Shown here piece by piece: positions 1-11,714 of a stretch of DNA of 11,714 bases. Within the stretch, counting starts at the first letter, position 1, and each line of letters begins with the position of its first letter. The notes under the pieces are model-generated. The model was given only the letters and a program-made list of their open reading frames with translations, ran no database searches and was not told where the DNA came from. This DNA is from a virus, in the UHGV virus genome UHGV-0097019; one strand, 5' to 3'. A program made the translations under genes and the position numbers.

Positions 1-1
1 C

Positions 2-44
2 TTTGTGTACACTTTTGTGTACCCAAAAACAAAAATGTGTACCC
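2..44. repeat. Three direct repeats of TGTGTAC (TTTGTGTAC at 2-10 and 14-22, TGTGTACCC at 36-44) immediately upstream of and overlapping the integrase start; candidate integrase-binding or att-proximal sites
   Basis: Seen directly in the sequence. The functional assignment is inference from position at the prophage end next to int. Confidence 0.35.
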
Positions 45-49
45 ATTCA

Positions 50-1243
50 ATGATCACCGACACAAAGCTCAGGAAGGCGCTCGGCAAGAAAAGAGATGAT
101 ATCGAGATTATTTCTGATTCGCACGGGCTCAACGCCAGAATCAGCCAGGCCGGAAAAATATCATTTTTCTATCGGTATCGCTGGGCCGGTAAAGCGGTAA
201 AACTCAATGTTGGTGATTATCCTGCAATGAGTATCACCCAGGCAAGAGAGCGTCGCCAACAATTCAGAAACTGGTTAACTGAGGGACTGGATCCGCGAGA
301 GCAGGTGAAGCTGGATAAGCAGACCCGACAGGAAGCGATGTCCGTTGCCGAAGCGTTCAATTACTGGATTGAAAGGCACTGTATCGCTAACGGGCTAGTT
401 AAAGTCGATTACTATCGCCAGGTGTTTGAGAAACATATCGCCGAACCGATGAAGAATGTCAAAGTCGATAACACAGCGAAAATGCACTGGATCAACGTCT
501 TCGATTCTATAGAAAGCAGGGTGATGGCTCATTACATGCTTTCGCTGTGCAAACGGGCCTTTAGGTTCTGCGTTAACAGAAGTGTGATCGCCTCAAACCC
601 ACTCGAGGGATTACTGCCATCTGATGTCGGGCAAAAGCCTAAAAAGAGAACTCGCAGGATGGACGATGACGATCTGCGCAAAATCTATCAGTGGTTGAAA
701 AGCCATATGTCGATAGAGTCCGTTTTCCTGGTGAAATTTATTATGCTTACCGGATGCCGTACGGCTGAGATTCGACTTAGTGAGAGATCATGGTTTCGAT
801 TGGATGATAATGAGTGGGTCGTGCCTGCGGGCAGTTATAAAACTCGGGTACATATTAGAAGGGGACTCTCAGACGCCGCCGTTAACCTGGTCAGAAATCA
901 CCTCAAGAAAATAAACACCAATCACCTGGTGACTTCACAACGTAAAATTGATGGCGGGATCAAAGATTCGCCCGTTCATTCACCTGTGGCATCCAATTAC
1001 GCCCGTTCTATTTGGAATGGAACAGGTATGGCAGAGTGGTCGCTTCATGATATGAGGCGGACGATAGCCACAAATCTCTCTGAGTTAGGTTGCCCGCCGC
1101 ACGTAATTGAAAAGCTGCTCGGGCATCAGATGGTGGGGGTTATGGCGCATTACAACCTTCATGACTATATCGATGATCAGAAACACTGGCTCCGCGTTTG
1201 GCAGAGCCATCTTGAAGAGATCATCGGAGAGCCCTTCAGTTAA
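50..1243 (+). CDS. int: Tyrosine recombinase / phage integrase, P4-like family
   Basis: 412-codon ORF. The N-terminus ([33 protein letters not shown]) matches the DUF4102 arm-binding domain of P4-type integrases. The C-terminus carries the catalytic signature HDMRRT...[18 protein letters not shown] (R, H, Y). Start is uncertain: GTG 5, ATG 35 and ATG 50 are all in frame and none has a clear Shine-Dalgarno; ATG 50 ([10 protein letters not shown]) was chosen by analogy with family N-termini. Confidence 0.9.
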
Positions 1244-1437
1244 TTTATCTTCTTTTTATCCTCCCACTCTTTGATTGACTCAGAGCGCCAGCGGTTAGGG
1301 TTGCCGGGCCAGTCAGGGGGTGGGAACGGGCATACGAAGCCCCGAGGCATTGTGTCTGCACTTTGCCATGACCAAAGGGTTTTGCGTGAAATTTTGTAGC
1401 GACTGGTCAGGTCTGACGTTACCAAAATATCATCCAT
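1240..1437 (-). CDS. xis: Excisionase-like DNA-binding protein (lambda Xis-like)
   Basis: 65 aa from ATG 1435-1437, with GGAAGAG upstream as Shine-Dalgarno. The pattern [17 protein letters not shown]...[12 protein letters not shown] recalls lambda Xis (RRWVRECRIFPPPVKDG), compared from memory. The ORF track extends it to a TTG at 1485, which would overlap the upstream gene. Convergent with int; the two stop codons overlap in TTAA at 1240-1243. Confidence 0.6.
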
Positions 1438-1477
1438 AGCTCTTCCAGTTGCCCGTTCGGGCCATTCAAAATCTTTT

Positions 1478-1720
1478 TCAACCAACCTGCCCGGGCAGGG
1501 AGCGGAGACGGCGCATGCCGGTCATCGCTGTGGCCACGTAGCTCGCCTTTCGGTTCACCACCTCCACCCAGACTTTCACGCCTTCAACCTTCACCGTATA
1601 AGTCTCTTTCATCTTGCTTCGCCCATAGTCGCCATATGTTTGCAAGTGAGCTGCCAGCGCGATGTCGCATGCTTGGCGAGCTAAAGGTGATTGCTTACTT
1701 CCTCGATTGATCAGTCGCAT
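1478..1720 (-). CDS. Hypothetical small prophage early protein
   Basis: 80-aa ORF with a strong Shine-Dalgarno (AAGGAG, 6 nt before ATG 1718-1720). Co-oriented with recT/recE. No family recognised. Confidence 0.55.
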   Translation of the reverse strand: MRLINRGSKQSPLARQACDIALAAHLQTYGDYGRSKMKETYTVKVEGVKVWVEVVNRKASYVATAMTGMRRLRSLPGQVG

Positions 1721-1733
1721 ATAATCTCCTTGA

Positions 1734-1751
1734 GGGAGGGTTACCCCTCCC
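1734..1751 (-). other. GC-rich hairpin (GGGAGGG-TTAC-CCCTCCC, 7-bp stem) between the recT-like stop and the Shine-Dalgarno of the next gene
   Basis: Perfect inverted repeat seen in the sequence. No U-run follows on the transcribed (-) strand, so it is not a classic intrinsic terminator. Possibly an RNA processing or translational structure. Confidence 0.3.
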
Positions 1752-1758
1752 GGTCTCG

Positions 1759-2877
1759 TCAGGCCACGTATTCCGGTTTCATATCCGCCAGGGTGATGCT
1801 GAATTGATCGTGCAGTTCATCGCCTAAGTGACGCTTTGAAGATGCAAGCATGCGCTCGGCTTCAGCGAACCGTTCGGATGCATGCGGCTCGTCGGGCTGG
1901 GGCAGGGATTTAATAGCCTCCTCAACCTTGTTGCGTGCATCCACTAGGTAATAACGCTTTACGGCTTTGTTTTTCAGCTCGGTGAATAGTGCGGATCCCA
2001 GCGTAGCTTTCGCCGTTTCAATGTCGGCACGCAGCGATTTGGCGCTATCCACGTCCTGAGCAGATTCGATGCGTTCGCGGAAATCATCGGCAAGAGAGTC
2101 GACATTTACCGACGATTCCTGTGCGCTTTGCGTGGTTGTGACGGTGTCACCTGAGATATCAGCCAGGCTAACGCGTTGCGGCGTTGGGTTGATCTCTTTT
2201 TCTGTGCGCTGTTCAATCTCATCAGGGGTGTACACACCAAGAACAACTGCAGGGCAATACAGGCGCGCCCAGTATTTGAGTGCCAGATAAGCGATCTGCT
2301 GTTTCGGGTTTGATACCCAAAGTGGAGAATTACGTGTGATTACGCTGGAGAGGAAAACAGGCTCTCCCCAGGTGATATCACTTTCACCGCGAATAACGGC
2401 ACCTACCCGTACCGACAGTCCTTGTTCATCAGCACTTTCCCAACCGCGTACCATTTCTTTCTTGTCGTACGTCCCGCCACCTTTCGCAGGCTTTTTAACG
2501 GTTATCTCGCGGCTGCTGGCACATTTCGACCAGTCGCCCTCGTACTCATAGTGAAAGCGGCCAACGATGGCGTTTGAGCTGGAGATCACCGCATTAACCA
2601 GTTGCGCTTCGTATCCCAGGACACCGTTAACCAGGTGCGTCTTTTGCGCCACGGCGTAAGGGTTCATACCCCACTGCATCGCCTGCATGATGATGGCCAT
2701 GCAGTCTGCCGGATTGCCGCGGAGGTGCTCAGGCACCGTTACGACTGCCTGTGCCATCAACCCGGCGACAGACTGAAGCTGGGTTAAAGCCTGCACGTTG
2801 AAAATGGCATTGCTGGCTGAGATCGTGTTTGGAGTCTGCTGTTCAGCGGTTACGATATTCGTGTTTTCCATCATCAT
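1759..2877 (-). CDS. recT: RecT/Red-beta-family single-strand annealing protein (recombinase)
   Basis: 372-aa ORF immediately downstream of the RecE-like gene (5-nt gap), same strand. The segment HLVNGVLGYEAQLVNAVISSSNAI resembles the RecT core (IIGYRGMIDLARRSGQI, recalled from memory). Three consecutive ATGs at 2869-2877 preceded by AAGGGGA; exact start among them is uncertain. Confidence 0.65.
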   Translation of the reverse strand: MMMENTNIVTAEQQTPNTISASNAIFNVQALTQLQSVAGLMAQAVVTVPEHLRGNPADCMAIIMQAMQWGMNPYAVAQKTHLVNGVLGYEAQLVNAVISSSNAIVGRFHYEYEGDWSKCASSREITVKKPAKGGGTYDKKEMVRGWESADEQGLSVRVGAVIRGESDITWGEPVFLSSVITRNSPLWVSNPKQQIAYLALKYWARLYCPAVVLGVYTPDEIEQRTEKEINPTPQRVSLADISGDTVTTTQSAQESSVNVDSLADDFRERIESAQDVDSAKSLRADIETAKATLGSALFTELKNKAVKRYYLVDARNKVEEAIKSLPQPDEPHASERFAEAERMLASSKRHLGDELHDQFSITLADMKPEYVA

Positions 2878-2882
2878 TCCCC

Positions 2883-4703
2883 TTATGCCTGAGTACGCAG
2901 CGCTTCAAGGCGGCGCAGGTCGAAGTCGTTCAGTTCGTCGGTGTAGTCAGCAGTGATTGGCGCTGGCCATTCACCTGTGTCGAATCCGGTTGCGATATTG
3001 CGCATCGCTTTGCGGTACTCGAGCATACCCAGCTCCAGTAGTTCAGCGGATGCCTCGATGATGGCGATCCAGTGGTAGTTCTCGTCTTTGTTGACGAAAA
3101 TCCAGAAGAACTGATCCAGCGCTGCGGTTTCGCAGTACATAGCCGCGCTCAGGTGATAATCACGTTCAATAATTTCCCGGTGTAGCCTGGCGCGCAGGCT
3201 TTCCTGCTTAACATTCCACATGCTGATGGTTTTCAGGTCAGCACCGATACGCACGCCGTCTAGGTCGATCTCAAGGTCAGGGCGCACACGAACTTCCAGT
3301 CCCGTCTCCTCGTCAAAGCCAAAGTAGCTCACCTCAACGGCGCGGCTCGGGTGGGTTAGCAGCATGCCTGCGGTCGGGTGCGAGAGCAGTGCTGACTGAA
3401 TTGCCTGCGCGGTGGCAAGTTGCTGGTGGGTAACCAGCACTTTCCCTTCCGGGTTGTTGCGCCACGCATCGAGCAGCTCGTCGGCGAACACTGCATCTGG
3501 TTTGACTGCCTTCACGGCCTGAATCAGATCGGCCTTCGTGCCAGAGACTTTCAGCGGTTGCAGCTTCTGAGCTTCCTGCGCGACCAGGTCAGGATTGATA
3601 ATCGCAAGTTGTTCGAGTAGTGCGTCGCGGCTGCCGCTGGTTTTAATCTGCGCTGGCAGGGTGGCGTTGTACTCTTTGATGCACGCCTTCATTGCTGTTG
3701 CTGTCTTCTTCTGATCTGCATCGATACGTTGGAATTCAGCTGGCAGCGCCATATAGTTCTGCGCCGTTTCATCCAGGCTAGCGCCCAGCGGCACCAGCGC
3801 TGGCAGGGTGGCGTTGTATTCATCCAGCAAAGCTTTGATATCGTCTGCGCTCAGTTGCGCTGGCAGGCTGGCGTTGTACTCATCAATAAACGCGCGGATC
3901 GTTGCCGTGGTGGTAAATGCACCTTCCGGAATTACGGGTTCAACGCTAAATTCTTCATCGAGCTGTTCTGGCTGCAACGCCAGCGCATGTACCAGGTTTC
4001 CCATGTCCAGCACTGAGGAGCGCTCTTTGACGATGGTTTTCTCAACGTGGCGCGCATTGAAGTACATCAGCGAAACGCGCGCATCTTTTACCTGGGTGGA
4101 ACTGATGCCGTTGGCAGCGTGGTAAACCTCGTTCGGCAGACCTTCATAGCGCCCAGGCTCGAAGTAATCGGGGTAAAAAACAGCTTGTTCGTCAGATTGC
4201 GCCTCTGGCTCGACGTGTGCCAAAACTGGTTCAGTCTGGTTTACAGAATCGCTATTTTGAGCGACAGATTCCGTATTTTGGTTTACATCGGCCTGCTGGC
4301 CGGGATGTGACTCTTCACCAGTTTCCAGACTGCTTTCGCCTGACTGCATTTCATTACCAACATTTTTTTCATCACTGACAGTTTCTTGAACCTGCACATT
4401 GCTGGTGGTTTCCGTAGCCTGTTTCGTGCCATGAGTTGCTGAGTTCTGCAGTAAAGCCGTAACATCGAATATTCCGTTGCCGACATTTTTAACCAGTTCT
4501 TGTTCGGCTTTATGTGGTTGTGCTGTCGCTTCCTCTGCGCGGCGGCGTGCTTCTTCTTCACGTACGCGTTGCAGGTTCTCTTCGTGAGTGCAGAAGGGTT
4601 TGCGTGGAGACTCCTTACTTTCAGGTTGGGGAATTTCCTGTGTTGCGGGCTCAGCTTCATGCAATGGCAATAACTCAACAGCAGCATTAAACGCAGCAGT
4701 CAT
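2883..4703 (-). CDS. recE: RecE-like exonuclease VIII (PD-(D/E)XK nuclease) with acidic/Q-rich N-terminal region and internal repeats
   Basis: 606-aa ORF. C-terminal half contains ...ETGLEVRVRPDLEIDLDGVRIGADLKT..., consistent with a PD-(D/E)XK motif, and an upstream YHAANGISSTQVK segment. Gene order with the recT-like gene matches Rac-type recET. N-terminal ~170 aa is low-complexity (E/Q/S/T-rich). Confidence 0.6.
   Translation of the reverse strand: MTAAFNAAVELLPLHEAEPATQEIPQPESKESPRKPFCTHEENLQRVREEEARRRAEEATAQPHKAEQELVKNVGNGIFDVTALLQNSATHGTKQATETTSNVQVQETVSDEKNVGNEMQSGESSLETGEESHPGQQADVNQNTESVAQNSDSVNQTEPVLAHVEPEAQSDEQAVFYPDYFEPGRYEGLPNEVYHAANGISSTQVKDARVSLMYFNARHVEKTIVKERSSVLDMGNLVHALALQPEQLDEEFSVEPVIPEGAFTTTATIRAFIDEYNASLPAQLSADDIKALLDEYNATLPALVPLGASLDETAQNYMALPAEFQRIDADQKKTATAMKACIKEYNATLPAQIKTSGSRDALLEQLAIINPDLVAQEAQKLQPLKVSGTKADLIQAVKAVKPDAVFADELLDAWRNNPEGKVLVTHQQLATAQAIQSALLSHPTAGMLLTHPSRAVEVSYFGFDEETGLEVRVRPDLEIDLDGVRIGADLKTISMWNVKQESLRARLHREIIERDYHLSAAMYCETAALDQFFWIFVNKDENYHWIAIIEASAELLELGMLEYRKAMRNIATGFDTGEWPAPITADYTDELNDFDLRRLEALRTQA
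3651..3882. repeat. Three near-identical 24-bp intragenic direct repeats (CGCTGGCAGG[G/C]TGGCGTTGTA[C/T]TC at 3651, 3799, 3859), each encoding EYNA(S/T)LPA in the RecE-like protein
   Basis: Seen directly. Reverse complement GAGTACAACGCCACCCTGCCAGCG translates to EYNATLPA. Protein context: IDEYNASLPAQ, LDEYNATLPAL, IKEYNATLPAQ. Confidence 0.8.
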
Positions 4704-4888
4704 GGTCCGGTTACTGTCTGTGTACCGTAGTGCTGATGAACCATGATGTTCTCCACTATTGCTGAGTGAACTTCGCTGGTGGTGCCGTGACGCTGATCTT
4801 CACAGTTGAGCGTTTTAACTCTGCAATTCACCACCGCGAAGCTCACTTCTGTGTTTGCCCTTGTCGCCAGGCTGGCGGAACGTTTCAA
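4700..4888 (-). CDS. Small upstream ORF translationally coupled to recE (62 aa from TTG, or only the last 14 codons from ATG 4742-4744)
   Basis: The stop codon overlaps the recE ATG (ATGA at 4700-4703). recE itself lacks a Shine-Dalgarno, whereas ATG 4744 has GGAG 6 nt upstream. The 62-aa version needs a TTG start; no recognisable family. Confidence 0.25.
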   Translation of the reverse strand: MKRSASLATRANTEVSFAVVNCRVKTLNCEDQRHGTTSEVHSAIVENIMVHQHYGTQTVTGP

Positions 4889-4996
4889 ACCTACTGCGCG
4901 TTAATATCACCACCTCATTCCGGTTTTCGTATGCCCCGGACGGCTACTTCGTGGGCTCCATGCCTGGGTGGTTCGTGGTGCGTCTTGGTGAGTTAG

Positions 4997-5025
4997 ATTA
5001 AATCACTGGTTTATATATATGTCAA
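4997..5025 (-). promoter_or_regulatory. pL-like early-left promoter: -35 TTGACA (5025..5020), 17-bp spacer, -10 TTTAAT (5002..4997) with upstream TG (extended -10)
   Basis: Consensus -35 read on the minus strand. Located just past the terminator of the repressor operon and directed into the recE/recT operon. Overlapped by a repressor-operator-like repeat. Confidence 0.4.
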
Positions 5026-5061
5026 CTTAAGGTTAGTGTTAATTGTAAATCTGAGGTTTAT
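4999..5061. promoter_or_regulatory. Candidate left operators: two copies of a 16-bp motif (TAAATCACTGGTTTAT at 4999-5014; TAAATCTGAGGTTTAT at 5046-5061), 47 bp apart
   Basis: The same motif recurs twice at 47-bp spacing in the repressor-cro intergenic region (6474-6489, 6521-6536). ATTGTAAATCTGAGGTTTAT (5042-5061) and ATTGTAAATATTTGGTTTAT (6470-6489) share 17 of 20 positions. Confidence 0.45.
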
Positions 5062-5099
5062 GTGGCTGGGTTTTGTGACACGTCTGCAGAATCGCAGGC

Positions 5100-5127
5100 A
5101 AAAAAAATCCCGACGCGTGGTCGGGAT
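5100..5127 (-). terminator. Rho-independent terminator ending the repressor operon
   Basis: On the minus strand the RNA reads AUCCCGAC-CACGC-GUCGGGAU followed by seven U (8-bp stem, 5-nt loop), about 70 nt after the stop of the 5200-5721 gene. Confidence 0.75.
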
Positions 5128-5199
5128 GAGAAGGTTCGGGGAAGGCGACAGAGTTAGTAGCTGAGAGCCTTATAACTCAGGCGTATTGACCAAATCTGA

Positions 5200-5721
5200 C
5201 TAAAAGAAGTGCATAAAAGCTTTGTACAGCCCTGTACCAATGGCGATAATCGCAGGGACACCTAAGAGAATCGCCAATTTAGCATCAGAGATTTTCTTGT
5301 CCACTGTGTCTGATGAGGGCTTTTTGTCTACAGACTCTTTGATACTAGACAGCCTCTCCAAAACTACAGCCATATTTTTGTCCAGTGAATTCACTGTCGT
5401 ATCAACTTTTGAAACTGTGTTTTTTATCTCGGCAACATCTTTCTTGATGTGGGCAACTTCAACCTCAAGAATAGCCAATCTCTTTTCCATGTCGTCACCT
5501 CCATCTTCAGTTGACGTATGAATGATTTCAGTATCATCCATAGCAACTGATGTGACAATCCGTTTTTGTTTATCCGAAGCGGCAAAACTACAAGCACCCA
5601 TAAGGAAGGTTGCTTGGCTCGAAGCTACTGATGAAAACTCTAAGCCTACTGTAGCTCCGCTATGGTCTGAATATGCAATCAATAACTTCCCTTCACCAAG
5701 AGATGATTGAGCCGCATCCAT
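5200..5721 (-). CDS. Uncharacterised tail-anchored membrane protein: N-terminal globular region, acidic linker, coiled-coil, C-terminal transmembrane helix
   Basis: 173 aa from ATG 5719-5721 (the track starts at the adjacent TTG). Coiled-coil-like segment MEKRLAILEVEVAHIKKDVAEIKNTVSKVDTTVNSLDKNMAVVLERLSSIKESV. C-terminal hydrophobic stretch LAILLGVPAIIAIGTGLYKAFMHFF. AT-rich codon usage distinct from flanking phage genes. Second gene of the repressor operon. Confidence 0.65.
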   Translation of the reverse strand: MDAAQSSLGEGKLLIAYSDHSGATVGLEFSSVASSQATFLMGACSFAASDKQKRIVTSVAMDDTEIIHTSTEDGGDDMEKRLAILEVEVAHIKKDVAEIKNTVSKVDTTVNSLDKNMAVVLERLSSIKESVDKKPSSDTVDKKISDAKLAILLGVPAIIAIGTGLYKAFMHFF

Positions 5722-5727
5722 CAATTA

Positions 5728-6009
5728 TTATTCCTCAAACATACTTTTTAAGGATTGATAAAAATCATAAGCCTTTTGTTTGCTTAAAGTCACAGACACA
5801 ACTTTGGTTCGCTGCATGCCCTTGACGACTATATCCGCATTATCCGTACCGATGATCGGGCTGCTATTCAGGAACACAAAATTGTAAACTTCGTAACCGG
5901 CATTTTGTGTGCCGATTGTTACGACACCGTCAGCATTGGTCTCGATGAAATTTTTCGCTTCGATTACATCATTAAGATGCATAAGTTCGACGGTTGTTTC
6001 TTTAGACAC
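5728..6009 (-). CDS. Uncharacterised small soluble protein (93 aa), first gene downstream of the repressor
   Basis: GTG start at 6007-6009 with GGAGG Shine-Dalgarno 5 nt upstream. Ends with a double stop (TAA TAA) 6 nt before the next gene's ATG. AT-rich. No family recognised. Confidence 0.65.
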   Translation of the reverse strand: MSKETTVELMHLNDVIEAKNFIETNADGVVTIGTQNAGYEVYNFVFLNSSPIIGTDNADIVVKGMQRTKVVSVTLSKQKAYDFYQSLKSMFEE

Positions 6010-6073
6010 CGAATCCTCCAGAAGATATTAAATCTTGAAATATTTTTATTACATGGAATTAGATACTACTGGT

Positions 6074-6463
6074 TTAGGTTTGCTCACCTTGCGATCGAAT
6101 CCGACCCTTCATGTACTTCTCGTACAGCTCATCTAACTCTTTCAGGCGAAGCGCAAAAATGCGGAGCATGTTCTGCTGCTCTTCTTCCGGTAACTGGCGG
6201 TAGAGCTCGAGCAAACGCTGTTCGTCCGGTTTGAGACCGTCTTTCTCCCCAACGTCTTCACCGAGTAGCCAGGCGACAGAAATACCAACAGCGTCGGCTA
6301 TGGCCAGTGCCGATTTCTTACTAATCACGCCTTTTTTGAACCAGCCGTTTACGGCCTGAGGGGTGACTCCAGCTATTCTTGCCATGTCTGCTTTGGTAAC
6401 GCCGCGATCAGTGATCTCAGTAAGGCGCTCCACCAGAACGAGGTTGGGTTCTTCTTTTCTCAT
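6074..6463 (-). CDS. Prophage repressor, XRE-type HTH, DicA/RacR-like
   Basis: 130 aa from ATG 6461-6463. N-terminal HTH (VTKADMARIAGVTPQAVNGWFKKGVISKKSALAIADAVGISVAWL). C-terminal LKPDEQRLLELYRQLPEEEQQNMLRIFALRL resembles the DicA tail (LSPKELELLELFNALPESEQ, from memory). No LexA-type S24 peptidase motif. The 219-aa ORF in the track is an upstream extension across the divergent promoter region and is rejected. Confidence 0.8.
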   Translation of the reverse strand: MRKEEPNLVLVERLTEITDRGVTKADMARIAGVTPQAVNGWFKKGVISKKSALAIADAVGISVAWLLGEDVGEKDGLKPDEQRLLELYRQLPEEEQQNMLRIFALRLKELDELYEKYMKGRIRSQGEQT

Positions 6464-6469
6464 ATGGTC

Positions 6470-6536
6470 ATTGTAAATATTTGGTTTATGCACGCAATAA
6501 ATCCAAAGTTTGCATGAAGTATAAATCTGTGGTTTA
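6470..6536. promoter_or_regulatory. Divergent immunity control region: PRM-like promoter for the repressor (-35 TTGCGT 6497..6492, 16-bp spacer, -10 TACAAT 6475..6470, minus strand) plus operator-like repeats (6474-6489, 6521-6536, and an inverted partner at about 6497-6507)
   Basis: The -10 ends about 6 nt before the repressor ATG and no Shine-Dalgarno is present, implying a leaderless transcript as for lambda cI from PRM. Repeat motif shared with the pL region. The rightward promoter for the cro-like gene is not cleanly resolved (candidate TTGCAT 6510-6515). Confidence 0.4.
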
Positions 6537-6565
6537 CTTCTGCTATCAATAAGCAGGAGAAGCAC

Positions 6566-6784
6566 ATGTCCGCACTCGATAAAGCAATTAAAGCCGCTGG
6601 CTCTGCCAGAAAGCTCAGCATCGCGCTTGGTGTGACGAGTATGTCTGTAAGTCATTGGAAGAATCGTGACCAAGGGATCGTCCCGCCAAGCTATATCTTC
6701 CCGATTTTCAAAATGACAGGCGTAACCCCCCACGAGCTGCGCCCTGATCTCTATCCAAATCCCACTGACGGATTACCAAAGTAG
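6566..6784 (+). CDS. ydaS: Cro-like HTH protein, YdaS family
   Basis: 72 aa, AGGAG Shine-Dalgarno. Divergent from the repressor. LSIALGVTSMSVSHWKNRDQGIVPPSYIFPIFKMTGVTPHELRPDLY parallels E. coli YdaS (LLGVSPPSVNQW...ELRPDI, recalled from memory). Confidence 0.75.
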   Translation: MSALDKAIKAAGSARKLSIALGVTSMSVSHWKNRDQGIVPPSYIFPIFKMTGVTPHELRPDLYPNPTDGLPK

Positions 6785-6795
6785 GAGCACTGACA

Positions 6796-7353
6796 ATGCA
6801 AACACTTTCTTTTCAACAGAATAACAGAGCGCCATCAGAGCACCTGAAATTCCAGTATCAACACAGTGAGGCTGAAGGCCAGCCGGTCGATCACCGGGCT
6901 ATCTGTTCTGCCGTCCGCGCCTGGGCGGCGGCAGAGGGCCGCGTGGCGGTCGCTCTGGCGATTAAAGAGGCTGCCGAACAGGCCGAGCTTGACAGCATTG
7001 ACATGACCGGCAGCGCCGATGTGTGGAACGTGAAGCTGTTTCGCTGGCTGGACAACCACGAGAAATCACCGGCCTACCGGGCGAACGTCGAGCAGCTGGC
7101 GCCGGTAATAATTTCGGTTCTGCCGCTGGCGTACCGGGATCGCGTGATTAAGCACGACTGCTTTGCGGTTCGTGTCGCCAGGTCGGTGAAAGAAGACGCT
7201 GAGGCGATACAGGCTGTCGTCCTCAAAGCCCCCAGACACGAACGGATGAAGGAAATCAGCGAGAGCATCGTAGCCAAGCTCTACCTGGACGGACCTGATT
7301 CTGTGGCGCCCATTATGGCGATGGTTACAACGATGCTGGGTGGTGCGCTATGA
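6796..7353 (+). CDS. YdaT-like / CII-like regulatory protein
   Basis: 185 aa, AGGAG Shine-Dalgarno 9 nt upstream, 11 nt after the ydaS-like stop. Assignment rests mainly on synteny (racR-ydaS-ydaT arrangement) plus loose similarity; not verified. Confidence 0.5.
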   Translation: MQTLSFQQNNRAPSEHLKFQYQHSEAEGQPVDHRAICSAVRAWAAAEGRVAVALAIKEAAEQAELDSIDMTGSADVWNVKLFRWLDNHEKSPAYRANVEQLAPVIISVLPLAYRDRVIKHDCFAVRVARSVKEDAEAIQAVVLKAPRHERMKEISESIVAKLYLDGPDSVAPIMAMVTTMLGGAL

Positions 7354-7437
7354 CGGGCTCAGAAATGGCGAAAGCCGCGGTGCTCGAACACCAACGGCTT
7401 TCAGGTGCAAAAACTGTGCGTAATTGCGGAGAACAGT

Positions 7438-8349
7438 ATGTCAAATACCGCTGAAATATTCAAATTCCCCACACAGCAGGGGAAACAGGAGAGCAGCATG
7501 GCTGAACTGGAGAAAGGCTATTTGCGCCTGGCCAACCAGATTCAGGATGCCCTGTGTATCGTCGAACTATCCGGGCGCGAGTTCCGGGTGCTGAATGCTA
7601 TCGTTCGTCTGACCTATGGCTGGTCTAAGAGTTCTGACCGCATCGCCAATAGCCTCATTGCAGATAAAACGACGCTGAAGGTGAAACACGTCTCTGAAGC
7701 CGTGTTGAGCCTTGCCTATCGGAACATCATCATCCTGCGCCGCATTGGGCAAACCAGATACATAGGGATTAATACCAGCCTGGATAAATGGGCGTATACC
7801 AAGCCAAATTGCATGAAGTGTCCAGCGGTGTTTCCTGCTGCTGAAGTTGTCACATGGGTTATTACCATCCCTGAATTCAGGGATAGCAATTTTACCCCTT
7901 CAATCATCCCTGAAAACGGGGATAACCATCCCCAAAAACAGGGAGAGGTATCCCTGAAAACAGGGAACACCAAAGACATTCTTCCAAATACAAATATAAA
8001 TACAGATCTAACCCCCTCTAATCCCCCAAAGGGGAAGGGTAAGTTTGACCCGCTGACGATTCCCGTTCCTGAGTGGCTTGATTCTGTGTCCTGGAGTGAG
8101 TGGGTGGCCTACCGCCAACAGTCTGGCAAAGCCATCAAGACCGAAATGACGGTCACCAAAGCATTCAAGTTGCTCAAGGCTTGCCTGGACGCTGGGCATG
8201 ACCCCGTTGATGTGATCAACACCAGTATCGCCAACGGGTACCAGGGACTGTTTAAACCGAAGTTCGCTCTCAACGCTCGCAAAACGGGCAGGGATGTGAA
8301 CCGCATTTCTGAGCCAGACAAAACAATCCCACCCGGATTCAGGGGGTAA
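7438..8349 (+). CDS. Replication initiator with lambda O-like N-terminal domain
   Basis: 303 aa from ATG 7438 (GGAGAA Shine-Dalgarno; the track starts at GTG 7405). N-terminus NTAEIFKFP...LSGREFRVLNAIVRLTYGWSKSSDRIANSLIADKTTL matches the Phage_rep_O N-terminal pattern. Iterons lie in the linker-coding part, as in lambda O. Confidence 0.8.
   Translation: MSNTAEIFKFPTQQGKQESSMAELEKGYLRLANQIQDALCIVELSGREFRVLNAIVRLTYGWSKSSDRIANSLIADKTTLKVKHVSEAVLSLAYRNIIILRRIGQTRYIGINTSLDKWAYTKPNCMKCPAVFPAAEVVTWVITIPEFRDSNFTPSIIPENGDNHPQKQGEVSLKTGNTKDILPNTNINTDLTPSNPPKGKGKFDPLTIPVPEWLDSVSWSEWVAYRQQSGKAIKTEMTVTKAFKLLKACLDAGHDPVDVINTSIANGYQGLFKPKFALNARKTGRDVNRISEPDKTIPPGFRG
7867..7967. repeat. Lambda-type replication origin iterons inside the O-like gene: four 18-bp dyad-symmetric repeats, followed by a moderately AT-rich stretch to about 8010
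   Basis: ATCCCTGAATTCAGGGAT (7867-7884), ATCCCTGAAAACGGGGAT (7906-7923), ATCCCCAAAAACAGGGAG (7928-7945), ATCCCTGAAAACAGGGAA (7950-7967); the last three are spaced 22 bp. Close to the lambda ori iteron consensus TCCCTCAAAACGAGGGA (from memory). Confidence 0.65.
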
Positions 8350-8351
8350 GC

Positions 8352-8690
8352 ATGCCAAGACCAAATACACCAGAAGAGCAGGCGGCACTTATCCGGGTGA
8401 TCATCGAAGAGGTGAAAATCCGTGGACGCTTAACCGTTAGCGAGGCATCACAGATGTTGTCGCTGCATCGTCAGACTGCTGAGAAGTATTTCCGCGTAGC
8501 AGCCGAACGCGGCGAACTCATTCGTTACGGTCGTCTAGATTTGTTCAGGGACCCAAAGGCTGTAATTGATTTCGATCTCCAACGATTCTCATACGGTTCG
8601 AGTAAGCCTCTGATTGAGTTACCAGCAGATTTTCGGGGAAGTGCGGTTATGCGTCGGGTTATAGATATCGTGGGGAGGATGCCAGCATGA
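8352..8690 (+). CDS. Hypothetical protein with HTH-like segment, immediately after the O-like gene
   Basis: 112 aa; ATG 2 nt after the O-like stop with a G-rich Shine-Dalgarno. LTVSEASQMLSLHRQTAEKYF looks like a helix-turn-helix. Not a recognisable P/DnaC-type helicase loader. Confidence 0.55.
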   Translation: MPRPNTPEEQAALIRVIIEEVKIRGRLTVSEASQMLSLHRQTAEKYFRVAAERGELIRYGRLDLFRDPKAVIDFDLQRFSYGSSKPLIELPADFRGSAVMRRVIDIVGRMPA

Positions 8691-8881
8691 CAACCGAAAA
8701 ACTGGCGTTGAATTATGACCCAGCCGATCCCGACAAGATGCGATTACCGGCTGGCATAACATGTGGTAATTGCCACCATATCCATCGTTGTAAAGCAATT
8801 TTTGGACACACGGAGTCGAACACATATTGCGATTGGTCACCGTCGCGATTTACTGCTGGCATTGGCGTGAAGGGGGTGTGA
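8687..8881 (+). CDS. Small Cys/His-rich protein (putative zinc-binding)
   Basis: 64 aa; ATGA start/stop overlap with the previous gene. Contains CGNCHHIHRC...C. Confidence 0.5.
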   Translation: MTTEKLALNYDPADPDKMRLPAGITCGNCHHIHRCKAIFGHTESNTYCDWSPSRFTAGIGVKGV

Positions 8882-8885
8882 GTCA

Positions 8886-9086
8886 GTGGAAAAATGTAAT
8901 CGCTGTATAGTCGGCCTGATTGGGTCGCAGCCAGTTCTTTCCAGTGACTGGGCTAATGCGGTCGTAAATTTTGAAATCGTAATTGCTGACTGGAACGAGA
9001 AAACCAAACGCTTTGCCGTTCCGCATCCTGGATTCGCCCATAAGTTCAATTACTGCCCGCATTGCGGAAACAAGGTAGAGGACTAA
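8886..9086 (+). CDS. Small zinc-ribbon protein (CxxC...CxxC)
   Basis: 66 aa; GTG start 5 nt after the previous stop with AGGGGG upstream. CNRC near the N-terminus and CPHC near the C-terminus. Confidence 0.5.
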   Translation: MEKCNRCIVGLIGSQPVLSSDWANAVVNFEIVIADWNEKTKRFAVPHPGFAHKFNYCPHCGNKVED

Positions 9087-9089
9087 CCC

Positions 9090-9647
9090 ATGACAACTAA
9101 CAACCACCCGGCGCACGGTCCTGTATCACTTGATCGCTTGCACCAGATACGCGAAATACTCAGCAAAGCAGCAGCACAAAGCGACGGCGGTAATCTCGGC
9201 TACGCAATGGCTGATGCAGTGAAGGTGATTGATGGGGTTCTGGAGTCGATAGCCCGTGAGCAGGTACGCTGTGAACATGCAGCATGGTCAGATGAAACAT
9301 TCGGCGATGTCGGTCCAGTTGGTCCGCTGAAGCACCTTTCCAAAGAAGCTATCGAGGCTGCTGCGGAACCAGACGAGATGAGCGAATGGGCTGACATGCA
9401 ATTCCTGTTATGGGATGCGCAACGTCGTGCCGGTATCAGTGATAAGCAGATTACCCTGGCGATGGTAGAAAAGCTGGCGGTTAACAAAAACCGCCAGTGG
9501 CCAGAGCCGAAAGACGGTGAACCGCGACTGCATATCAAAGCGCAGTCAGAATCGGTGCTTCCTGGAATTGAATGCGATATCTGCGGACATGTATCTACTG
9601 ACCCAGAGGGACGGCACTACTACTGCGAGGATAACAGTAATGATTGA
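9090..9647 (+). CDS. DUF550-like protein (MazG-like nucleotide pyrophosphohydrolase family, predicted)
   Basis: 185 aa with GAGGA Shine-Dalgarno. The segment SEWADMQFLLWDAQRRAGISDKQITLAMVEKLAVNKNRQWPEPKDGEPRLHIK resembles DUF550 proteins common in lambdoid nin regions (from memory, unverified). Confidence 0.6.
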   Translation: MTTNNHPAHGPVSLDRLHQIREILSKAAAQSDGGNLGYAMADAVKVIDGVLESIAREQVRCEHAAWSDETFGDVGPVGPLKHLSKEAIEAAAEPDEMSEWADMQFLLWDAQRRAGISDKQITLAMVEKLAVNKNRQWPEPKDGEPRLHIKAQSESVLPGIECDICGHVSTDPEGRHYYCEDNSND

Positions 9648-9819
9648 TAAATACCGTTTGGAGAATATGCGACGCGAAAGCGGCGAAAAGGGAGAACTCG
9701 GGACATGCCGTTTGAAGGTGACATGCATAATGCCCTAGTCGATGCGAAACATCAGGCTATGTATGTCTCAGCCATCTGGAAGCTGCTAATCATCACCCCA
9801 GATAACAGCGAGGCATAAC

Positions 9820-10021
9820 ATGACTGAGCAACCTGATGATCTCCTCACTCCGGGCGAGGTATGCCAGAAGCTGGGAATTACGCAAAAAACATTATGTAAA
9901 TGGAATACAGAACACCGACACCGGTCTACATTGGCCCCGTGTAAAGTTCAGCGCTAAGATTGTTCGCTATGAGCGCCGTAGCATAGAAGCTTTTATCCAG
10001 AAATGCCGGAGCCAATATTGA
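9820..10021 (+). pseudogene. Frameshifted AlpA/excisionase-type HTH gene
   Basis: Frame A from ATG 9820 gives MTEQPDDLLTPGEVCQKLGITQKTLCKWNTEH..., then stops at 9955-9957. Frame +2 gives TPVYIGP around 9922-9940. Frame +1 gives PRVKFSAKIVRYERRSIEAFIQKCRSQY through 10021. Joined, they make a canonical ~68-aa HTH protein, implying two 1-nt frame changes near 9920-9930 and in the C-run at 9935-9938. Confidence 0.45.
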
Positions 10022-10029
10022 TCTAATGT

Positions 10030-10072
10030 GGGGCTATTGTTTTTTAACAAATGCCCCTCATTTAACTTTTTT
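10030..10072 (+). terminator. Possible intrinsic terminator after the HTH pseudogene
   Basis: Interrupted hairpin GGGGC-TA-TTGTT-TTTT-AACAA-AT-GCCCC (10030-10057) followed by a T-rich stretch TCATTTAACTTTTTT. The stem is bulged and the U-run is not contiguous. Confidence 0.35.
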
Positions 10073-10448
10073 GTGTGTTAAGTCCAATTCTGACCCCACA
10101 CATAAAATCACCAATACCTGCGCCAACACTGTTCCCATCAGCAACATAATCACCTTTGAAAGCTAATTTCCCATCCATATAGAAGAATCTTATCTCCCCA
10201 TATCCACTATCACAGTCGGCATCTTTAATACTAACTTTGTAGTACTCTACTTTTTTATTTTTTGTTTGATACATGAACAAGGCAGATGAATCACCTTTTA
10301 CATTTCTAAATGTGCCTTTTTTTGCTGAAAAAATGCCATCATCAGCTGTAGTAACCTCAACCCAGTTACTTGTCGTTTCAGCAAAAGCAACACTTGCAAC
10401 AAAAAGAGCAGAAAAGCCCAGTAATGCGATTTTCTTAGCCATAAACAA
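10062..10448 (-). CDS. Small secreted/periplasmic protein with N-terminal signal peptide
   Basis: 128 aa. MFMAKKIALLGFSALFVASVAFA-ETTS reads as a Sec signal peptide with an AxA cleavage site. Two Cys in the mature part. Strongly AT-rich. Confidence 0.6.
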   Translation of the reverse strand: MFMAKKIALLGFSALFVASVAFAETTSNWVEVTTADDGIFSAKKGTFRNVKGDSSALFMYQTKNKKVEYYKVSIKDADCDSGYGEIRFFYMDGKLAFKGDYVADGNSVGAGIGDFMCGVRIGLNTQKS

Positions 10449-10721
10449 TATTCCATTTATTTAGGATTTTTCTTGATTCTATCTGTGTTTTAAATAACGT
10501 TCAACTACACACCGCATGCCTTCTTAAATGGGCATGGAGAGCCATTCAACCCCGTAGCTTTAGCAACGCAACTTGCGCGAGAATGTTCCGCTTTTAAGTC
10601 GCAGCGAGACAAGACTCATGAGTAACATAAAGTTAACCCGCTACGTCGGTTTTTCACTCTCTATTGTATATGCTATTTTTTATGCAATAAGAGCGATTCG
10701 TAGGACTCTTCTGGGGAAGGT

Positions 10722-10919
10722 ATGGATTCAACAATCGACGAAGAAAAACGCATAGAATTTGAAAAATTCATCATTGAAAGGTTTGGTGATGCAGTTAATC
10801 TCCGCAGAGCGAAAAATGGCGGTAATGGATATATATCATGGGAGGCGGCTGTCGCATGGATTGTCTGGAGGGAGCGCTCATCCCATCATGAAGCAACGCC
10901 TACCTCTGACGGGAACTGA
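10722..10919 (+). CDS. Hypothetical small protein; coding status uncertain
   Basis: 65-aa ORF, MDSTIDEEKRIEFEKFIIERFGDAVNL..., with GGGGAAGG just upstream. Overlaps ORFs in another frame (10573-10755, 10759-11103), so it may be part of a decayed gene. Confidence 0.25.
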   Translation: MDSTIDEEKRIEFEKFIIERFGDAVNLRRAKNGGNGYISWEAAVAWIVWRERSSHHEATPTSDGN

Positions 10920-11142
10920 ATTAGTATGGTGCTGCCCGGAGCATCCTGTCATTCACTATGTACTCCCGCTTAGCCACGTCATTTTAGATTTGATTTTGGT
11001 CCACCATGAGCGAGAAGCGGACCTAGAGAGGCGTTGGTACCGCGAACATGGTCACAGCAAAGCCAGAGCTATTTGGTTGCTCCGAACAGAATATTTTAGT
11101 TAGGGCTCGAAACGAGACTGTCGTGAAAACCTTATGTCTCTT

Positions 11143-11714
11143 CTATCCTGCATCTTCTTCGACATTGTATTTTCGTTGCTCAATATCCCATGGAAGCGCA
11201 GGTTGTTTGCGAACTAGTTTTCTTTTGCCGTTTGAGAAAAAATAAGTTCTGAGTTCTAAAAAATGGCGGCGTTTTTTCGTTTGAGGCTCATAGGTGATAA
11301 GAAAAAAAATCAAAGGCCTGCTTGCTTCACTCCATATTCTACTTGCTTTTTCAATAACAATATTGATGTTTTCATGCTGACAATATGAGATGAATGTGGA
11401 GAAATAGCACTTGTCGTTTTTTTCAAGCAGTTTGTCTAACTCGTTAACGCTATCTCTGTCTGCCTGATTATACTCCCACTCAACATAGGTTAAAATTTGA
11501 TTGTCTGGATATTGTAGGACCGCATCGGTACGCCCGCCTTGTTCAAAAAATGTTCTTGCGCCCATTAACTTTGCACACTCGCGCATGACCAGGCCAACAT
11601 GAATGGTCCAGTTGGAACGGTTGATATATTCACCTTTGAACACAGGGAAATCTTGATACCACACACAATTAAACAGACAGATAAAATCGCGCTCTACTCG
11701 CTTCAACGCCTCCC
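11143..11714 (-). CDS. Hypothetical protein, probably 5'-truncated by the window edge
   Basis: ORF of at least 187 aa on the minus strand, still open at the window end (only a TTG at 11704-11706 inside the window). AT-rich. No family recognised. Confidence 0.45.
   Translation of the reverse strand, partial: EALKRVERDFICLFNCVWYQDFPVFKGEYINRSNWTIHVGLVMRECAKLMGARTFFEQGGRTDAVLQYPDNQILTYVEWEYNQADRDSVNELDKLLEKNDKCYFSTFISYCQHENINIVIEKASRIWSEASRPLIFFLITYEPQTKKRRHFLELRTYFFSNGKRKLVRKQPALPWDIEQRKYNVEEDAG

What the first reader, a model, noticed from the sequence alone, without database searches (positions are those of the whole stretch)
10022..11714. AT-rich right-hand segment with atypical genes, likely cargo or a decayed region
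After the HTH pseudogene the composition becomes AT-rich and gene organisation changes. It contains a minus-strand signal-peptide protein, a stretch of mutually overlapping plus-strand ORFs, and a minus-strand ORF of at least 187 aa that runs off the window. No helicase loader (P/DnaC-like), Q antiterminator, lysis or structural genes appear after the O-like gene. Either the prophage is cryptic or truncated here, or foreign cargo is inserted. The protein of at least 187 aa is unrecognised and could belong to an accessory system continuing beyond the window.
Basis: partly seen in the sequence, partly recalled or inferred. Interest (0 to 1): 0.45.

Follow-up and report, generated by a model that had tools for sequence, protein, structure and literature searches.

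The report
Prophage cargo slot with orphan nuclease
The AT-rich end of the window is a patchwork of foreign "cargo" genes in an E. coli prophage whose genome continues normally to the right, and one cargo gene belongs to a small unnamed protein family that is predicted to fold like the restriction enzyme BamHI.

Summary
Window 10022-11714 has GC 0.41 against 0.505 to its left, and gene orientation changes there.

The "truncated or cryptic prophage" reading fails. In a 99.96%-identical E. coli locus the phage continues directly with DinI, DUF1367, DUF1364, RusA, YlcG, Q antiterminator, lysis, terminase and structural genes.

The segment is a variable cargo slot between the DUF550 gene and the DinI-to-Q module. 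More than 100 related prophages share the right-hand module, and the three examined that also share the left flank carry different cargo there. It is built from at least three pieces:
- **Piece 1 (9699-10592):** an inverted copy (93.6% identical) of the integrase-proximal end of a Citrobacter prophage. It holds an exonuclease fragment, an HTH gene broken by one extra G, an intact 126-aa periplasmic protein, and about 47 bp of integrase 3' end.
- **Piece 2 (10593-10997):** a stretch of unknown origin with a 65-aa gene resembling SfV orf28.
- **Piece 3 (10998 to about 200 bp past the window):** a single-gene cassette of about 0.9 kb.

The cassette's 187-aa ORF is complete and does not run off the window. 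It has no Pfam, NCBIfam, PHROG, PADLOC or PDB sequence match. Its confident model resembles BamHI, BstYI and OkrAI, and E55, D61 and E76-x-E78 are conserved. It is probably a solitary nuclease, and a defence role is plausible but unproven.

The parts
9699..9818 (+). C-terminal fragment of an Rv2179c-like 3'-5' exoribonuclease gene. It marks the left edge of the block copied from a Citrobacter-type prophage.
   Evidence: PGAP marks it 'incomplete, missing N-terminus' in the identical locus. Homology to L011 begins at 9699. The intact L011 gene has the PF16473 domain.
9820..10021 (+). HTH_17 / phrog_4745 DNA-binding gene, inactivated by a +1 frameshift (extra G at 9939).
   Evidence: The two reading frames each match half of phrog_4745. 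The alignment with the intact 66-aa Citrobacter gene shows a single inserted G.
10025..10062 (.). Strong hairpin between the convergent HTH pseudogene and the 126-aa gene. On the + strand it is followed by a T-rich run, so it is a likely terminator.
   Evidence: dG is -17 kcal/mol on both strands, z = -4.7 and -5.0, and 0 of 200 shuffles fold as well. It is 100% conserved in the Citrobacter locus.
10062..10442 (-). Intact 126-aa secreted (Sec signal peptide, no lipobox) protein with a beta-sheet plus C-terminal-helix fold and conserved Cys77/Cys115. It is a moron gene usually found next to prophage integrases.
10476..10504 (-). Sigma-70-like promoter match (TTGAAC-17-TAGAAT), 34 nt upstream of the 126-aa start codon.
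   Evidence: Consensus scan, L001 20805-20777, which equals window 10504-10476. This is a consensus match only.
10546..10592 (-). Relic of the last ~47 bp of a foreign integrase gene. It marks the right edge of the Citrobacter-type block.
   Evidence: BLASTN homology to L011 runs to L011 7853, inside the int gene (6502-7899). Identity drops to roughly 75% here.
10722..10919 (+). 65-aa small phage gene, related to the C-terminal domain of SfV orf28-type proteins that precede xis/int. It is the only supported gene among the overlapping + strand ORFs.
   Evidence: Annotated by PGAP. phrog_660 E 7e-5. tblastn hits in 35 phages. 44% identity over 55 aa to SfV orf28.
10998..11142 (-). 3' flank of the nuclease cassette. 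It is shared with the chromosomal copies in other enterics and in Pantoea.
   Evidence: Homology to L008 and L024 starts at 10998 and 11004 respectively.
11143..11706 (-). Complete 187-aa gene of an unclassified family with a predicted PD-(D/E)XK (BamHI-like) fold and conserved E55, D61, E76-x-E78. It is a probable solitary Mg2+-dependent endonuclease. Its ~200-bp upstream region lies beyond the window.

Best explanation
Window 10022-11714, with its true left edge at about 9699, is an accessory-gene ("moron") slot in a Rac-like lambdoid prophage whose genome otherwise continues normally to the right.

Shown:
- The slot lies between the replication/DUF550 genes and the conserved DinI-NinG/RusA-Q module.
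- Relatives carry different cargo in the same slot.
- Here it was filled by at least three recombination events. The first brought an inverted copy of the integrase-proximal end of a Citrobacter-type prophage. The second brought a piece of unknown origin with a small orf28-like gene. The third brought a ~0.9-kb single-gene cassette whose chromosomal copies are bracketed by REP-like palindromes.
- Two intact low-GC genes point leftward, antisense to the early-right operon.

Inferred:
- Each leftward gene is transcribed from its own promoter in the lysogen.
- The 126-aa product is exported to the periplasm, where it acts as a binding or exclusion factor.
- The 187-aa product is a metal-dependent endonuclease of the PD-(D/E)XK superfamily. 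D61, E76 and E78 (with E55) would coordinate Mg2+ as D94, E111 and E113 (with E77) do in BamHI.
- It acts without a partner methyltransferase, most likely against incoming foreign DNA (superinfection exclusion or defence). How it spares host DNA is unknown.
For: Normal continuation of the prophage.

Variable slot: the right-hand module starting at L001 22332 is found in more than 100 E. coli genomes, while only 3 of 5,426 genomes carry this cargo. Three relatives hold other cargo: an HTH protein with hypotheticals, YdcA with a methyltransferase remnant, and tRNA-Ile.

Mosaic joints: 9699-10592 is 93.6% identical to L011 in inverted orientation. 10998 to window-equivalent 11911 is 83-86% identical to L008 and L024.

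Composition.

Nuclease evidence:
- AF2 model with pLDDT 85.9 and pTM 0.84.
- Foldseek's top hit is YaeQ, which is also a PD-(D/E)XK superfamily member (PMC3424549).
- In 75 members down to 20% identity the only invariant columns are E55, E76 and E78. D61, H36 and K92 are at least 90% conserved.
- D61 sits at the start of a strand, and E76/E78 alternate on the next strand.
- BamHI and OkrAI use the rare ExE variant (PMC3025578).

Mobile or defence association: the gene lies between the HNH and terS genes of Pseudomonas prophages, in an ICE near a SIR2 gene, 2 kb from a Gabija-like pair, and with DarTG and Mrr among neighbours.
Against: - No sequence-level link to any nuclease family was found. 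hhalign against BamHI gives probability 1%. There is no PDB sequence hit at E<=10 and no Pfam hit in 75 members.
- Foldseek TM-scores are only about 0.4, and nitrilase-fold proteins also appear among its hits.
- I could not inspect model coordinates to confirm that the four acidic residues cluster in space.
- Many family members sit in ordinary metabolic neighbourhoods.
- PADLOC has no model for the protein.
- No promoter-like site passed the scan upstream of the nuclease gene.
- A solitary sequence-specific endonuclease without a methyltransferase should be toxic, and the mechanism that avoids this is unknown.
Confidence: 0.6

Rival explanations
1. The segment is simply a decaying, non-functional part of a cryptic prophage.
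For: - It contains three gene relics: an exonuclease fragment, a frameshifted HTH gene and an integrase 3' end.
- The inserted block places a strong hairpin in the path from the early promoter to Q.
- Far to the right, the annotation of the identical locus lacks a tape-measure gene and has partial genes. The prophage as a whole may therefore be defective.
Against: - The Q, lysis, terminase and head modules follow normally.
- The 126-aa and 187-aa ORFs are intact, full-length relative to all homologs, and keep their conserved residues.
- The same arrangement recurs at 97-99.9% identity in several IMG/VR contigs and in 3 E. coli genomes.
Confidence: 0.1
2. The 187-aa gene is a selfish, free-standing homing-type endonuclease cassette that spreads by cutting empty sites. 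It would not be a defence gene.
For: - It travels as a discrete single-gene unit of about 0.9 kb with reproducible edges.
- It occurs in unrelated intergenic sites, including between the HNH and small-terminase genes of Pseudomonas phages on the opposite strand.
- Its phyletic distribution is patchy: Pseudomonas, Pantoea, enterics, Dehalococcoidia and one archaeal MAG.
- PD-(D/E)XK homing endonucleases exist (my own knowledge).
Against: - Synteny is stable in fluorescens-group Pseudomonas (SDR, then the gene, then cytochrome c).
- The catalytic residues are strictly conserved across phyla.
- The flanking palindromes are a common REP-like repeat, not element-specific ends.
- No conserved target gene is evident.
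Confidence: 0.2
3. The 187-aa protein is an orphan or remote-partner Type II restriction endonuclease of the BamHI group, protected by a methyltransferase encoded elsewhere.
For: - The top structural hits are BamHI, BstYI and OkrAI.
- It has the ExE catalytic variant typical of BamHI and OkrAI.
- Its size (187 aa) is similar to OkrAI (194 aa).
Against: - No methyltransferase lies beside it in any annotated context.
- No neighbour is conserved across the 44 loci compared.
- There is no detectable sequence homology to BamHI.
- The gene moves alone between genomes, which would be lethal for a classical restriction enzyme.
Confidence: 0.1
4. The 187-aa protein is not a nuclease. The fold similarity is generic, or the PD-(D/E)XK scaffold has been put to another use as in YaeQ-like proteins of unknown role. 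The conserved acidic residues would then serve another function.
For: - Foldseek ranks YaeQ and nitrilase-superfamily proteins first, with TM about 0.4.
- No sequence-profile link to any nuclease was found.
- Several members have housekeeping-type contexts.
Against: - The invariant E, D and ExE residues fall on the canonical strands of an alpha-beta-beta-beta-alpha-beta core.
- The gene is repeatedly associated with mobile elements.
Confidence: 0.15

Closest known systems
Moron / accessory-gene slots of lambdoid prophages, such as variable loci between the replication genes and the nin/Q region, and prophage defence hotspots (PMC9122126 for P2/P4)
   Same: - The position lies between conserved modules.
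- The content varies among relatives.
- GC is low.
- The genes are antisense to the phage operon, with a promoter-like site and a hairpin.
- The mosaic joints are sharp.
   Different: - The cargo here includes relics of another prophage's integrase end, inverted.
- None of the cargo genes matches a described lysogenic-conversion or defence gene.
BamHI / OkrAI / BstYI / BglII group of Type II restriction endonucleases (PD-(D/E)XK superfamily)
   Same: - The proteins are of similar size and single-domain.
- The acidic motif is D...E-x-E, with a fourth conserved Glu, as in BamHI (E77, D94, E111, E113) and OkrAI.
   Different: - No detectable sequence or profile similarity.
- No methyltransferase partner.
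- The spacing of the first Glu differs (E55 to D61 is 6 residues, against 17 in BamHI).
- The gene moves as a solitary cassette.
Defence-associated PD-(D/E)XK effectors NucC (CBASS / type III CRISPR) and HamA (Hachiman)
   Same: - Association with mobile elements and defence islands.
   Different: - Those effectors depend on partner proteins or cyclic-nucleotide signals.
- No CD-NTase, helicase or other partner is linked to this family.
YaeQ family (PF07152)
   Same: - Foldseek top hit.
- Similar length (about 180 aa).
- A compact PD-(D/E)XK-variant fold.
   Different: - The Pfam YaeQ model does not match any of 75 family members.
- TM-scores are about 0.4.
- YaeQ is a conserved chromosomal gene, not mobile cargo.
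Haemophilus influenzae Protein E (for the 126-aa protein)
   Same: - A small exported protein with a conserved Cys pair.
   Different: - 3% identity and no Pfam match.
- It has a Sec (SPase I) signal peptide rather than a lipoprotein signal.
- It is found at prophage ends in Enterobacteriaceae.
- No evidence of adhesin function.

Membership tests
PD-(D/E)XK phosphodiesterase superfamily (187-aa protein) | alpha-beta-beta-beta-alpha-beta core fold | tested here: met
   [not shown]
PD-(D/E)XK phosphodiesterase superfamily (187-aa protein) | Conserved acidic residue at the start of the second strand, and (D/E)-x-(K/E/Q) on the third strand | tested here: met
   D61 is at least 90% conserved. E76 and E78 are invariant in 75 sequences down to 20% identity. 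Spatial clustering was not checked because no coordinates were available.
PD-(D/E)XK phosphodiesterase superfamily (187-aa protein) | Significant sequence or profile match to a member family | tested here: not met
   No hit in Pfam, NCBIfam, PHROGs or PADLOC. The PDB profile search found nothing at E<=10.
PD-(D/E)XK phosphodiesterase superfamily (187-aa protein) | Divalent-metal-dependent phosphodiester cleavage | not testable with these tools
   Needs biochemistry.
BamHI-like Type II restriction endonuclease | Homology to BamHI or OkrAI | tested here: not met
   hhalign of the family profile against BamHI gives probability 1.25%. The BamHI sequence used was verified as identical to 1bam_A.
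BamHI-like Type II restriction endonuclease | Glu at the last catalytic position (E-x-E) | tested here: met
   E76-W-E78 is invariant. The BamHI and OkrAI residues come from PMC3025578.
BamHI-like Type II restriction endonuclease | Adjacent cognate DNA methyltransferase | tested here: not met
   None is present in the annotated contexts. No neighbour is conserved across lineages.
Known anti-phage defence systems (PADLOC-DB v2.0.0) | Match to a defence-protein model | tested here: not met
   No hit at E<=1 for any of the five ORFs of the segment.
Known anti-phage defence systems (PADLOC-DB v2.0.0) | Enrichment next to known defence genes | tested here: inconclusive
   Some loci have Gabija-like, SIR2, DarTG or Mrr neighbours. 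Others have purely metabolic neighbours. No statistics against a background were computed.
YaeQ (PF07152) | Match to the Pfam model | tested here: not met
   None of 75 members matches at E<=0.1.
Protein E-type surface adhesin (126-aa protein) | Fold: beta-sheet plus C-terminal helix | tested here: inconclusive
   [not shown]
Protein E-type surface adhesin (126-aa protein) | Lipoprotein signal (lipobox Cys), with sequence family match | tested here: not met
   The signal peptide ends in AFA|E with no Cys. There is no Pfam match at E<=1. That Protein E is a lipoprotein is my own knowledge.
Phage moron / cargo slot | Lies between conserved modules and varies among related phages | tested here: met
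Phage moron / cargo slot | Composition deviates from the phage backbone | tested here: met
Phage moron / cargo slot | Own promoter and terminator, with expression from the repressed prophage | tested here: inconclusive
   There is a consensus-like promoter before the 126-aa gene and a strong hairpin after it. No promoter was found by the scan for the nuclease gene. Expression cannot be tested here.

The most novel reading that the evidence does not exclude
The 187-aa protein founds an unclassified family: about 180 cluster representatives among 1.84 billion proteins, with no Pfam, NCBIfam or PADLOC model. Its members would be solitary BamHI-fold 'ExE' endonucleases that act as a single-gene, methyltransferase-independent anti-phage or anti-plasmid defence. 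They might be modification-dependent or otherwise restricted to foreign DNA. The family would be spread by prophages, ICEs and defence islands from Pseudomonas to Enterobacteriaceae, with distant relatives in Dehalococcoidia.
Probability: 0.3. Interest if true: 0.6.

Novelty: new member of a known kind. Interest (0 to 1): 0.4.

Why it matters
For annotation, the result shows the prophage is not truncated at this point, and it gives exact mosaic boundaries.

Biologically, the segment is a small, well-delimited example of how lambdoid prophages assemble cargo from other prophages' ends and from chromosomal cassettes.

The most useful product is a testable candidate. It is a tiny, unannotated family predicted to be a stand-alone restriction-endonuclease-fold enzyme with the rare BamHI-type ExE site, and it is carried by several kinds of mobile element. 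If it proves to be a single-gene defence or a new specificity class of nuclease, it would add to the defence-system catalogue and possibly to the enzyme toolbox. If not, the region is ordinary.

Tried and rejected
- **Sequence-family searches.** Pfam, PHROGs, PADLOC and NCBIfam found nothing for the 126-aa and 187-aa proteins.
- **Phage genome searches.** Megablast and tblastn against 50,697 phage genomes found no match for either protein.
- **PDB sequence-profile search.** Nothing at E<=10.
- **hhalign against BamHI.** Not significant. The only aligned stretch was the WYxDFP motif against BamHI WYREKP, which contains E77. I treat it as a curiosity, not evidence.
- **AFDB Foldseek library.** Unavailable.
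- **Frameshifted-gene idea.** I tested whether the overlapping + strand ORFs are pieces of one frameshifted gene. tblastn with SfV orf28 matched only the single 65-aa frame, so this was rejected.
- **Partner-gene idea.** I looked for a conserved partner, such as a methyltransferase, immunity or helicase gene, beside the nuclease. All-against-all clustering of neighbours in 44 loci found none shared across lineages.
- **Element-specific palindromes.** I tested whether the 24-nt palindromes flanking the cassette are element-specific ends.
- **Terminal repeats.** I looked for terminal direct or inverted repeats of the cassette in the prophage copy and found only short chance-level matches.
- **Literature.** Searches for the RefSeq accessions and for a BamHI-like solitary defence nuclease found nothing.
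- **Alignment A3 as a locus-search query.** It was too diverse for locus searching, so A1 was used instead.
Full report
**1. Setting**

The window is the left 11.7 kb of a Rac-like lambdoid prophage. Its genes are:
- integrase (5-1243)
- DUF4060
- RecT (1759-2877)
- a RecE-type PDDEXK exonuclease (2883-4703)
- an HTH_3 repressor, then Cro and YdaT
- a Phage_rep_O replication protein (7438-8349)
- DUF977
- two small ORFs
- a DUF550 / dATP-dGTP pyrophosphohydrolase gene (9090-9647)

Window 1-4713 and 4711-11714 are 99.9% and 99.96% identical to E. coli PSJ-22 (locus L001). L001 has an extra 1.56 kb in the RecE region. In L001 the element sits between kch and yciI/tonB.

**2. Checking the observation**

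- **Composition.** GC is 0.411 in 10022-11714 and 0.505 to the left. No 1693-nt stretch to the left falls below 0.434. GC3 is 0.27 for the 126-aa gene and 0.40 for the 187-aa gene, against 0.47-0.67 for the core genes.
- **Signal-peptide protein.** It is real, at 10062-10442 on the minus strand, 126 aa from the ATG that every homolog uses.
- **HTH pseudogene.** It is real. Two frames each match half of phrog_4745. The alignment with the intact Citrobacter gene shows one extra G at 9939.
- **Overlapping plus-strand ORFs.** They exist, but only 10722-10919 (65 aa) has support. It is annotated by PGAP, matches phrog_660, and is 44% identical over 55 aa to the C-terminal domain of SfV orf28. ORF 10759-11103 crosses a mosaic junction, and ORF 11048-11245 is antisense to the nuclease gene.
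- **The 187-aa ORF.** It does not run off the window. It starts at a TTG (11706) behind GGGGGGGAGG. In L001 an in-frame TGA lies six codons upstream with no start codon between. Residue 1 aligns with M1 of 33 homologs of 185-191 aa.

**3. Is the prophage truncated here?**

No. In L001 the sequence to the right reads: DinI (with a LexA box), a 249-bp ORF (about 82 aa), DUF1367, DUF1364, RusA, YlcG, Q-type antiterminator, holin, lysozyme, Rz1, terminase small and large subunits, portal, head, neck, tail, tail-fibre genes and an invertase. One caveat applies. The extension is by proxy from a 99.96%-identical locus, and several IMG/VR contigs show the same order.

**4. A variable slot**

The right-hand module begins at L001 22332, which is window-equivalent 12031. 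It is shared with more than 100 E. coli genomes, yet only 3 of 5,426 complete genomes carry this cargo. Relatives hold other things between the same flanks:
- KL53: three hypotheticals, a 367-aa HTH protein and a methyltransferase remnant.
- ES8: YdcA and a methyltransferase remnant.
- ECCWS199: tRNA-Ile and hypotheticals.

**5. Mosaic anatomy**

- **Piece 1, window 9699-10592.** It is 93.6% identical, in inverted orientation, to the integrase-proximal end of Citrobacter prophages. There the order is int(+), 126-aa(+), HTH_17(-), Rv2179c-like exonuclease(-). The copy carries the last 120 bp of the exonuclease gene, the HTH gene, a 100%-conserved hairpin, the 126-aa gene with its promoter-like site, and about 47 bp of the integrase 3' end. 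In Klebsiella aerogenes the same gene again lies at a prophage/chromosome junction beside a recombinase.
- **Shared gene start, window 9088-9237.** The first 150 bp of the DUF550 gene are 95% identical to the start of the neighbouring Citrobacter gene. This marks a shared recombination module.
- **Piece 2, window 10593-10997.** It has no relative outside this prophage lineage at the DNA level. It carries the 65-aa orf28-like gene.
- **Piece 3, window 10998 to window-equivalent 11904-11911.** It is 83-86% identical to chromosomal loci of another enteric bacterium (L008) and of Pantoea wallisii (L024). The edges are the same in both. The unit is 145 bp of 3' flank, the 564-bp gene and about 200 bp upstream.

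In the chromosomal copies of piece 3 the unit is bracketed by a 24-nt palindrome, GTCCGCT-NN-TGGCA-NNN-AGCGGAC. This turned out to be a widespread REP-like repeat. The prophage keeps only a decayed right-hand copy, which suggests capture from a chromosome.

**6. The 187-aa protein**

- **Family size.** The word-indexed search found 34 clusters, all unnamed. The exhaustive profile search of 1.84 billion representatives found 183 at E<=0.001, nearly all single-domain proteins of 185-235 aa.
- **No sequence classification.** No Pfam, NCBIfam, PHROG, PADLOC or PDB sequence match was found, even when all 75 diverse members were scanned.
- **Model.** The AF2 model is confident (pLDDT 85.9, pTM 0.84). 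Its core order is helix 30-47, then strands 51-53, 62-65 and 71-81, then helix 89-95, then strand 102-110.
- **Foldseek.** It is weaker (TM about 0.4). Its best hits are YaeQ proteins and it also finds EcoRV. YaeQ is itself a PD-(D/E)XK superfamily member (PMC3424549).
- **Conserved residues.** Across 75 members down to 20% identity the only invariant columns are E55, E76 and E78. D61, H36, T34, W77, E89, K92, Y108 and W125 are at least 90% conserved. D61 precedes the second core strand. E76 and E78 alternate on the third strand, which is the canonical position of the (D/E)xK motif.
- **The ExE variant.** BamHI uses E77, D94, E111 and E113, and OkrAI uses E71, D86, E99 and E101. A Glu at the last position is rare among restriction enzymes (PMC3025578).
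- **Limit of the link.** The profile-sequence comparison with BamHI is not significant. The relationship is therefore at the level of fold and motif, not demonstrable homology.

**7. Contexts of the family**

No neighbour is shared across lineages. The contexts found are:
- The cargo slot of this E. coli prophage.
- Pseudomonas prophages, between the HNH endonuclease and small-terminase genes and on the opposite strand.
- An ICE (TraG, TraU), 3.6 kb from a SIR2 gene.
- P. atacamensis, 2 kb from a pair that looks like Gabija GajA/GajB: an AAA_15/OLD-TOPRIM protein followed by a UvrD-family helicase.
- Near an AAA_15/AAA_21 ATPase, or near a P4-like satellite with HsdR.
- Plain metabolic surroundings in fluorescens-group Pseudomonas and elsewhere.
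- Dehalococcoidia MAGs and one Bathyarchaeia MAG, at 31-37% identity.

A scan of 132 neighbouring ORFs hit DarT/DarG, an Mrr-type enzyme, PDC-M53A/B and HEC-01A. The commonest Pfam families, however, were MFS, LysR and SDR. No methyltransferase lies beside the gene in any annotated context.

I read this as moderate support for a role in inter-element conflict. It is not proof.

**8. The 126-aa protein**

- **Family.** 38 clusters, all Enterobacteriaceae and all unnamed.
- **Export signal.** The N-terminus has two lysines, a hydrophobic core and AFA|E. This fits a Sec signal peptide without a lipobox.
- **Model.** The mature part is modelled confidently as seven strands plus a C-terminal helix. 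Cys115 is invariant and Cys77 is conserved in at least 90% of sequences.
- **Position.** It is constantly found at prophage ends, which fits a lysogen-expressed moron. I infer a periplasmic binding or exclusion function with low confidence.

**9. Mechanism and confidence**

| Claim | Status | Confidence |
|---|---|---|
| The segment is mosaic cargo in a normally continuing prophage | shown | about 0.85-0.9 |
| The 187-aa protein is an active metal-dependent PD-(D/E)XK nuclease | inferred from fold and invariant acidic residues | about 0.65-0.7 |
| It serves defence or superinfection exclusion rather than selfish spread or another role | inferred from context | about 0.35-0.4 |

How a solitary endonuclease avoids host DNA is unknown.

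**10. Novelty**

The kind of locus is well known (phage morons and prophage cargo hotspots; for example PMC9122126). The nuclease family is unclassified at the sequence level, but it fits a known superfamily. I therefore rate the finding as a new member of a known kind, of moderate interest.

Noticed in passing
window 5000-6050: A second AT-rich patch (GC 0.41) lies between the recombination genes and the repressor. It has two minus-strand ORFs. The 174-aa ORF (5200-5724) has a weak SlyX coiled-coil match and a hydrophobic C-terminus. The 93-aa ORF (5728-6009) has no family match. This looks like another moron slot.
   Followed up: partly
window ~4711-4713 (corresponds to L001 13448-15012): Relative to E. 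coli PSJ-22 the window lacks 1.56 kb. This removes the N-terminal part of RecE (969 aa there, a 606-aa ORF here) and the YdaE gene. The window therefore comes from a deletion variant of the same prophage.
   Followed up: partly
L008 9792-9814 and 10726-10748; L024 5729-5751; decayed copy at L001 ~22193-22216: In chromosomal copies the nuclease cassette is bracketed by a 24-nt palindrome, GTCCGCT-NN-TGGCA-NNN-AGCGGAC. The motif (extended consensus ATGTCCGCTnnTGGCACAAAGCGGACA) is very widespread in metagenomic and viral contigs. In many prophage contigs it is followed by one of two conserved sequences, possibly IS ends inserted at REP-like sites.
   Followed up: partly
L001 22371-22388 and 22461-22480 (beyond the window): An intrinsic-terminator-like hairpin is followed by a perfect LexA box (TACTGTATAAAAACACAGTA) in front of the prophage dinI gene. 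The conserved right-hand module therefore starts with an SOS-regulated gene.
   Followed up: no
window 10025-10062: The imported block places a strong hairpin (-17 kcal/mol, followed by a T-rich tail on the + strand) in the path of rightward early transcription toward Q. Whether this impairs late-gene expression is unknown.
   Followed up: partly
L001 36738-37845 (beyond the window): No tape-measure gene is annotated between the tail assembly chaperone and the DUF2612 baseplate gene. Partial genes lie there instead. The prophage may be defective in tail genes even though it is not truncated at the flagged segment.
   Followed up: no
187-aa protein residues 16-21 vs BamHI residues 74-79: The nearly invariant family motif W-Y-x-D-F-P resembles BamHI W-Y-R-E77-K-P, which contains catalytic Glu77. 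It was the only stretch hhalign aligned (E 0.042, probability 1%). It may be coincidence.
   Followed up: partly
L043-L055 (Dehalococcoidia MAGs), L052 (Bathyarchaeia MAG): Distant members of the nuclease family (31-37% identity) occur in Dehalococcoidia and in one archaeal MAG, next to housekeeping genes such as gltX and a radical-SAM gene. This is an unexpectedly disjunct distribution for such a small family.
   Followed up: partly
L012 14258-15331, L013 14258-15367 (Citrobacter prophages): The Citrobacter prophages that donated the 126-aa block also carry a 357-369-aa RelA_SpoT-domain gene in their early region. It is possibly a toxSAS/CapRel-type defence gene.
   Followed up: no
L021 2590-4324 (E. 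coli KL53, same slot): A related prophage carries, in the same slot, an overlapping pair of genes: a 216-aa hypothetical and a 367-aa HTH-domain protein. This could be a different two-gene accessory system.
   Followed up: no
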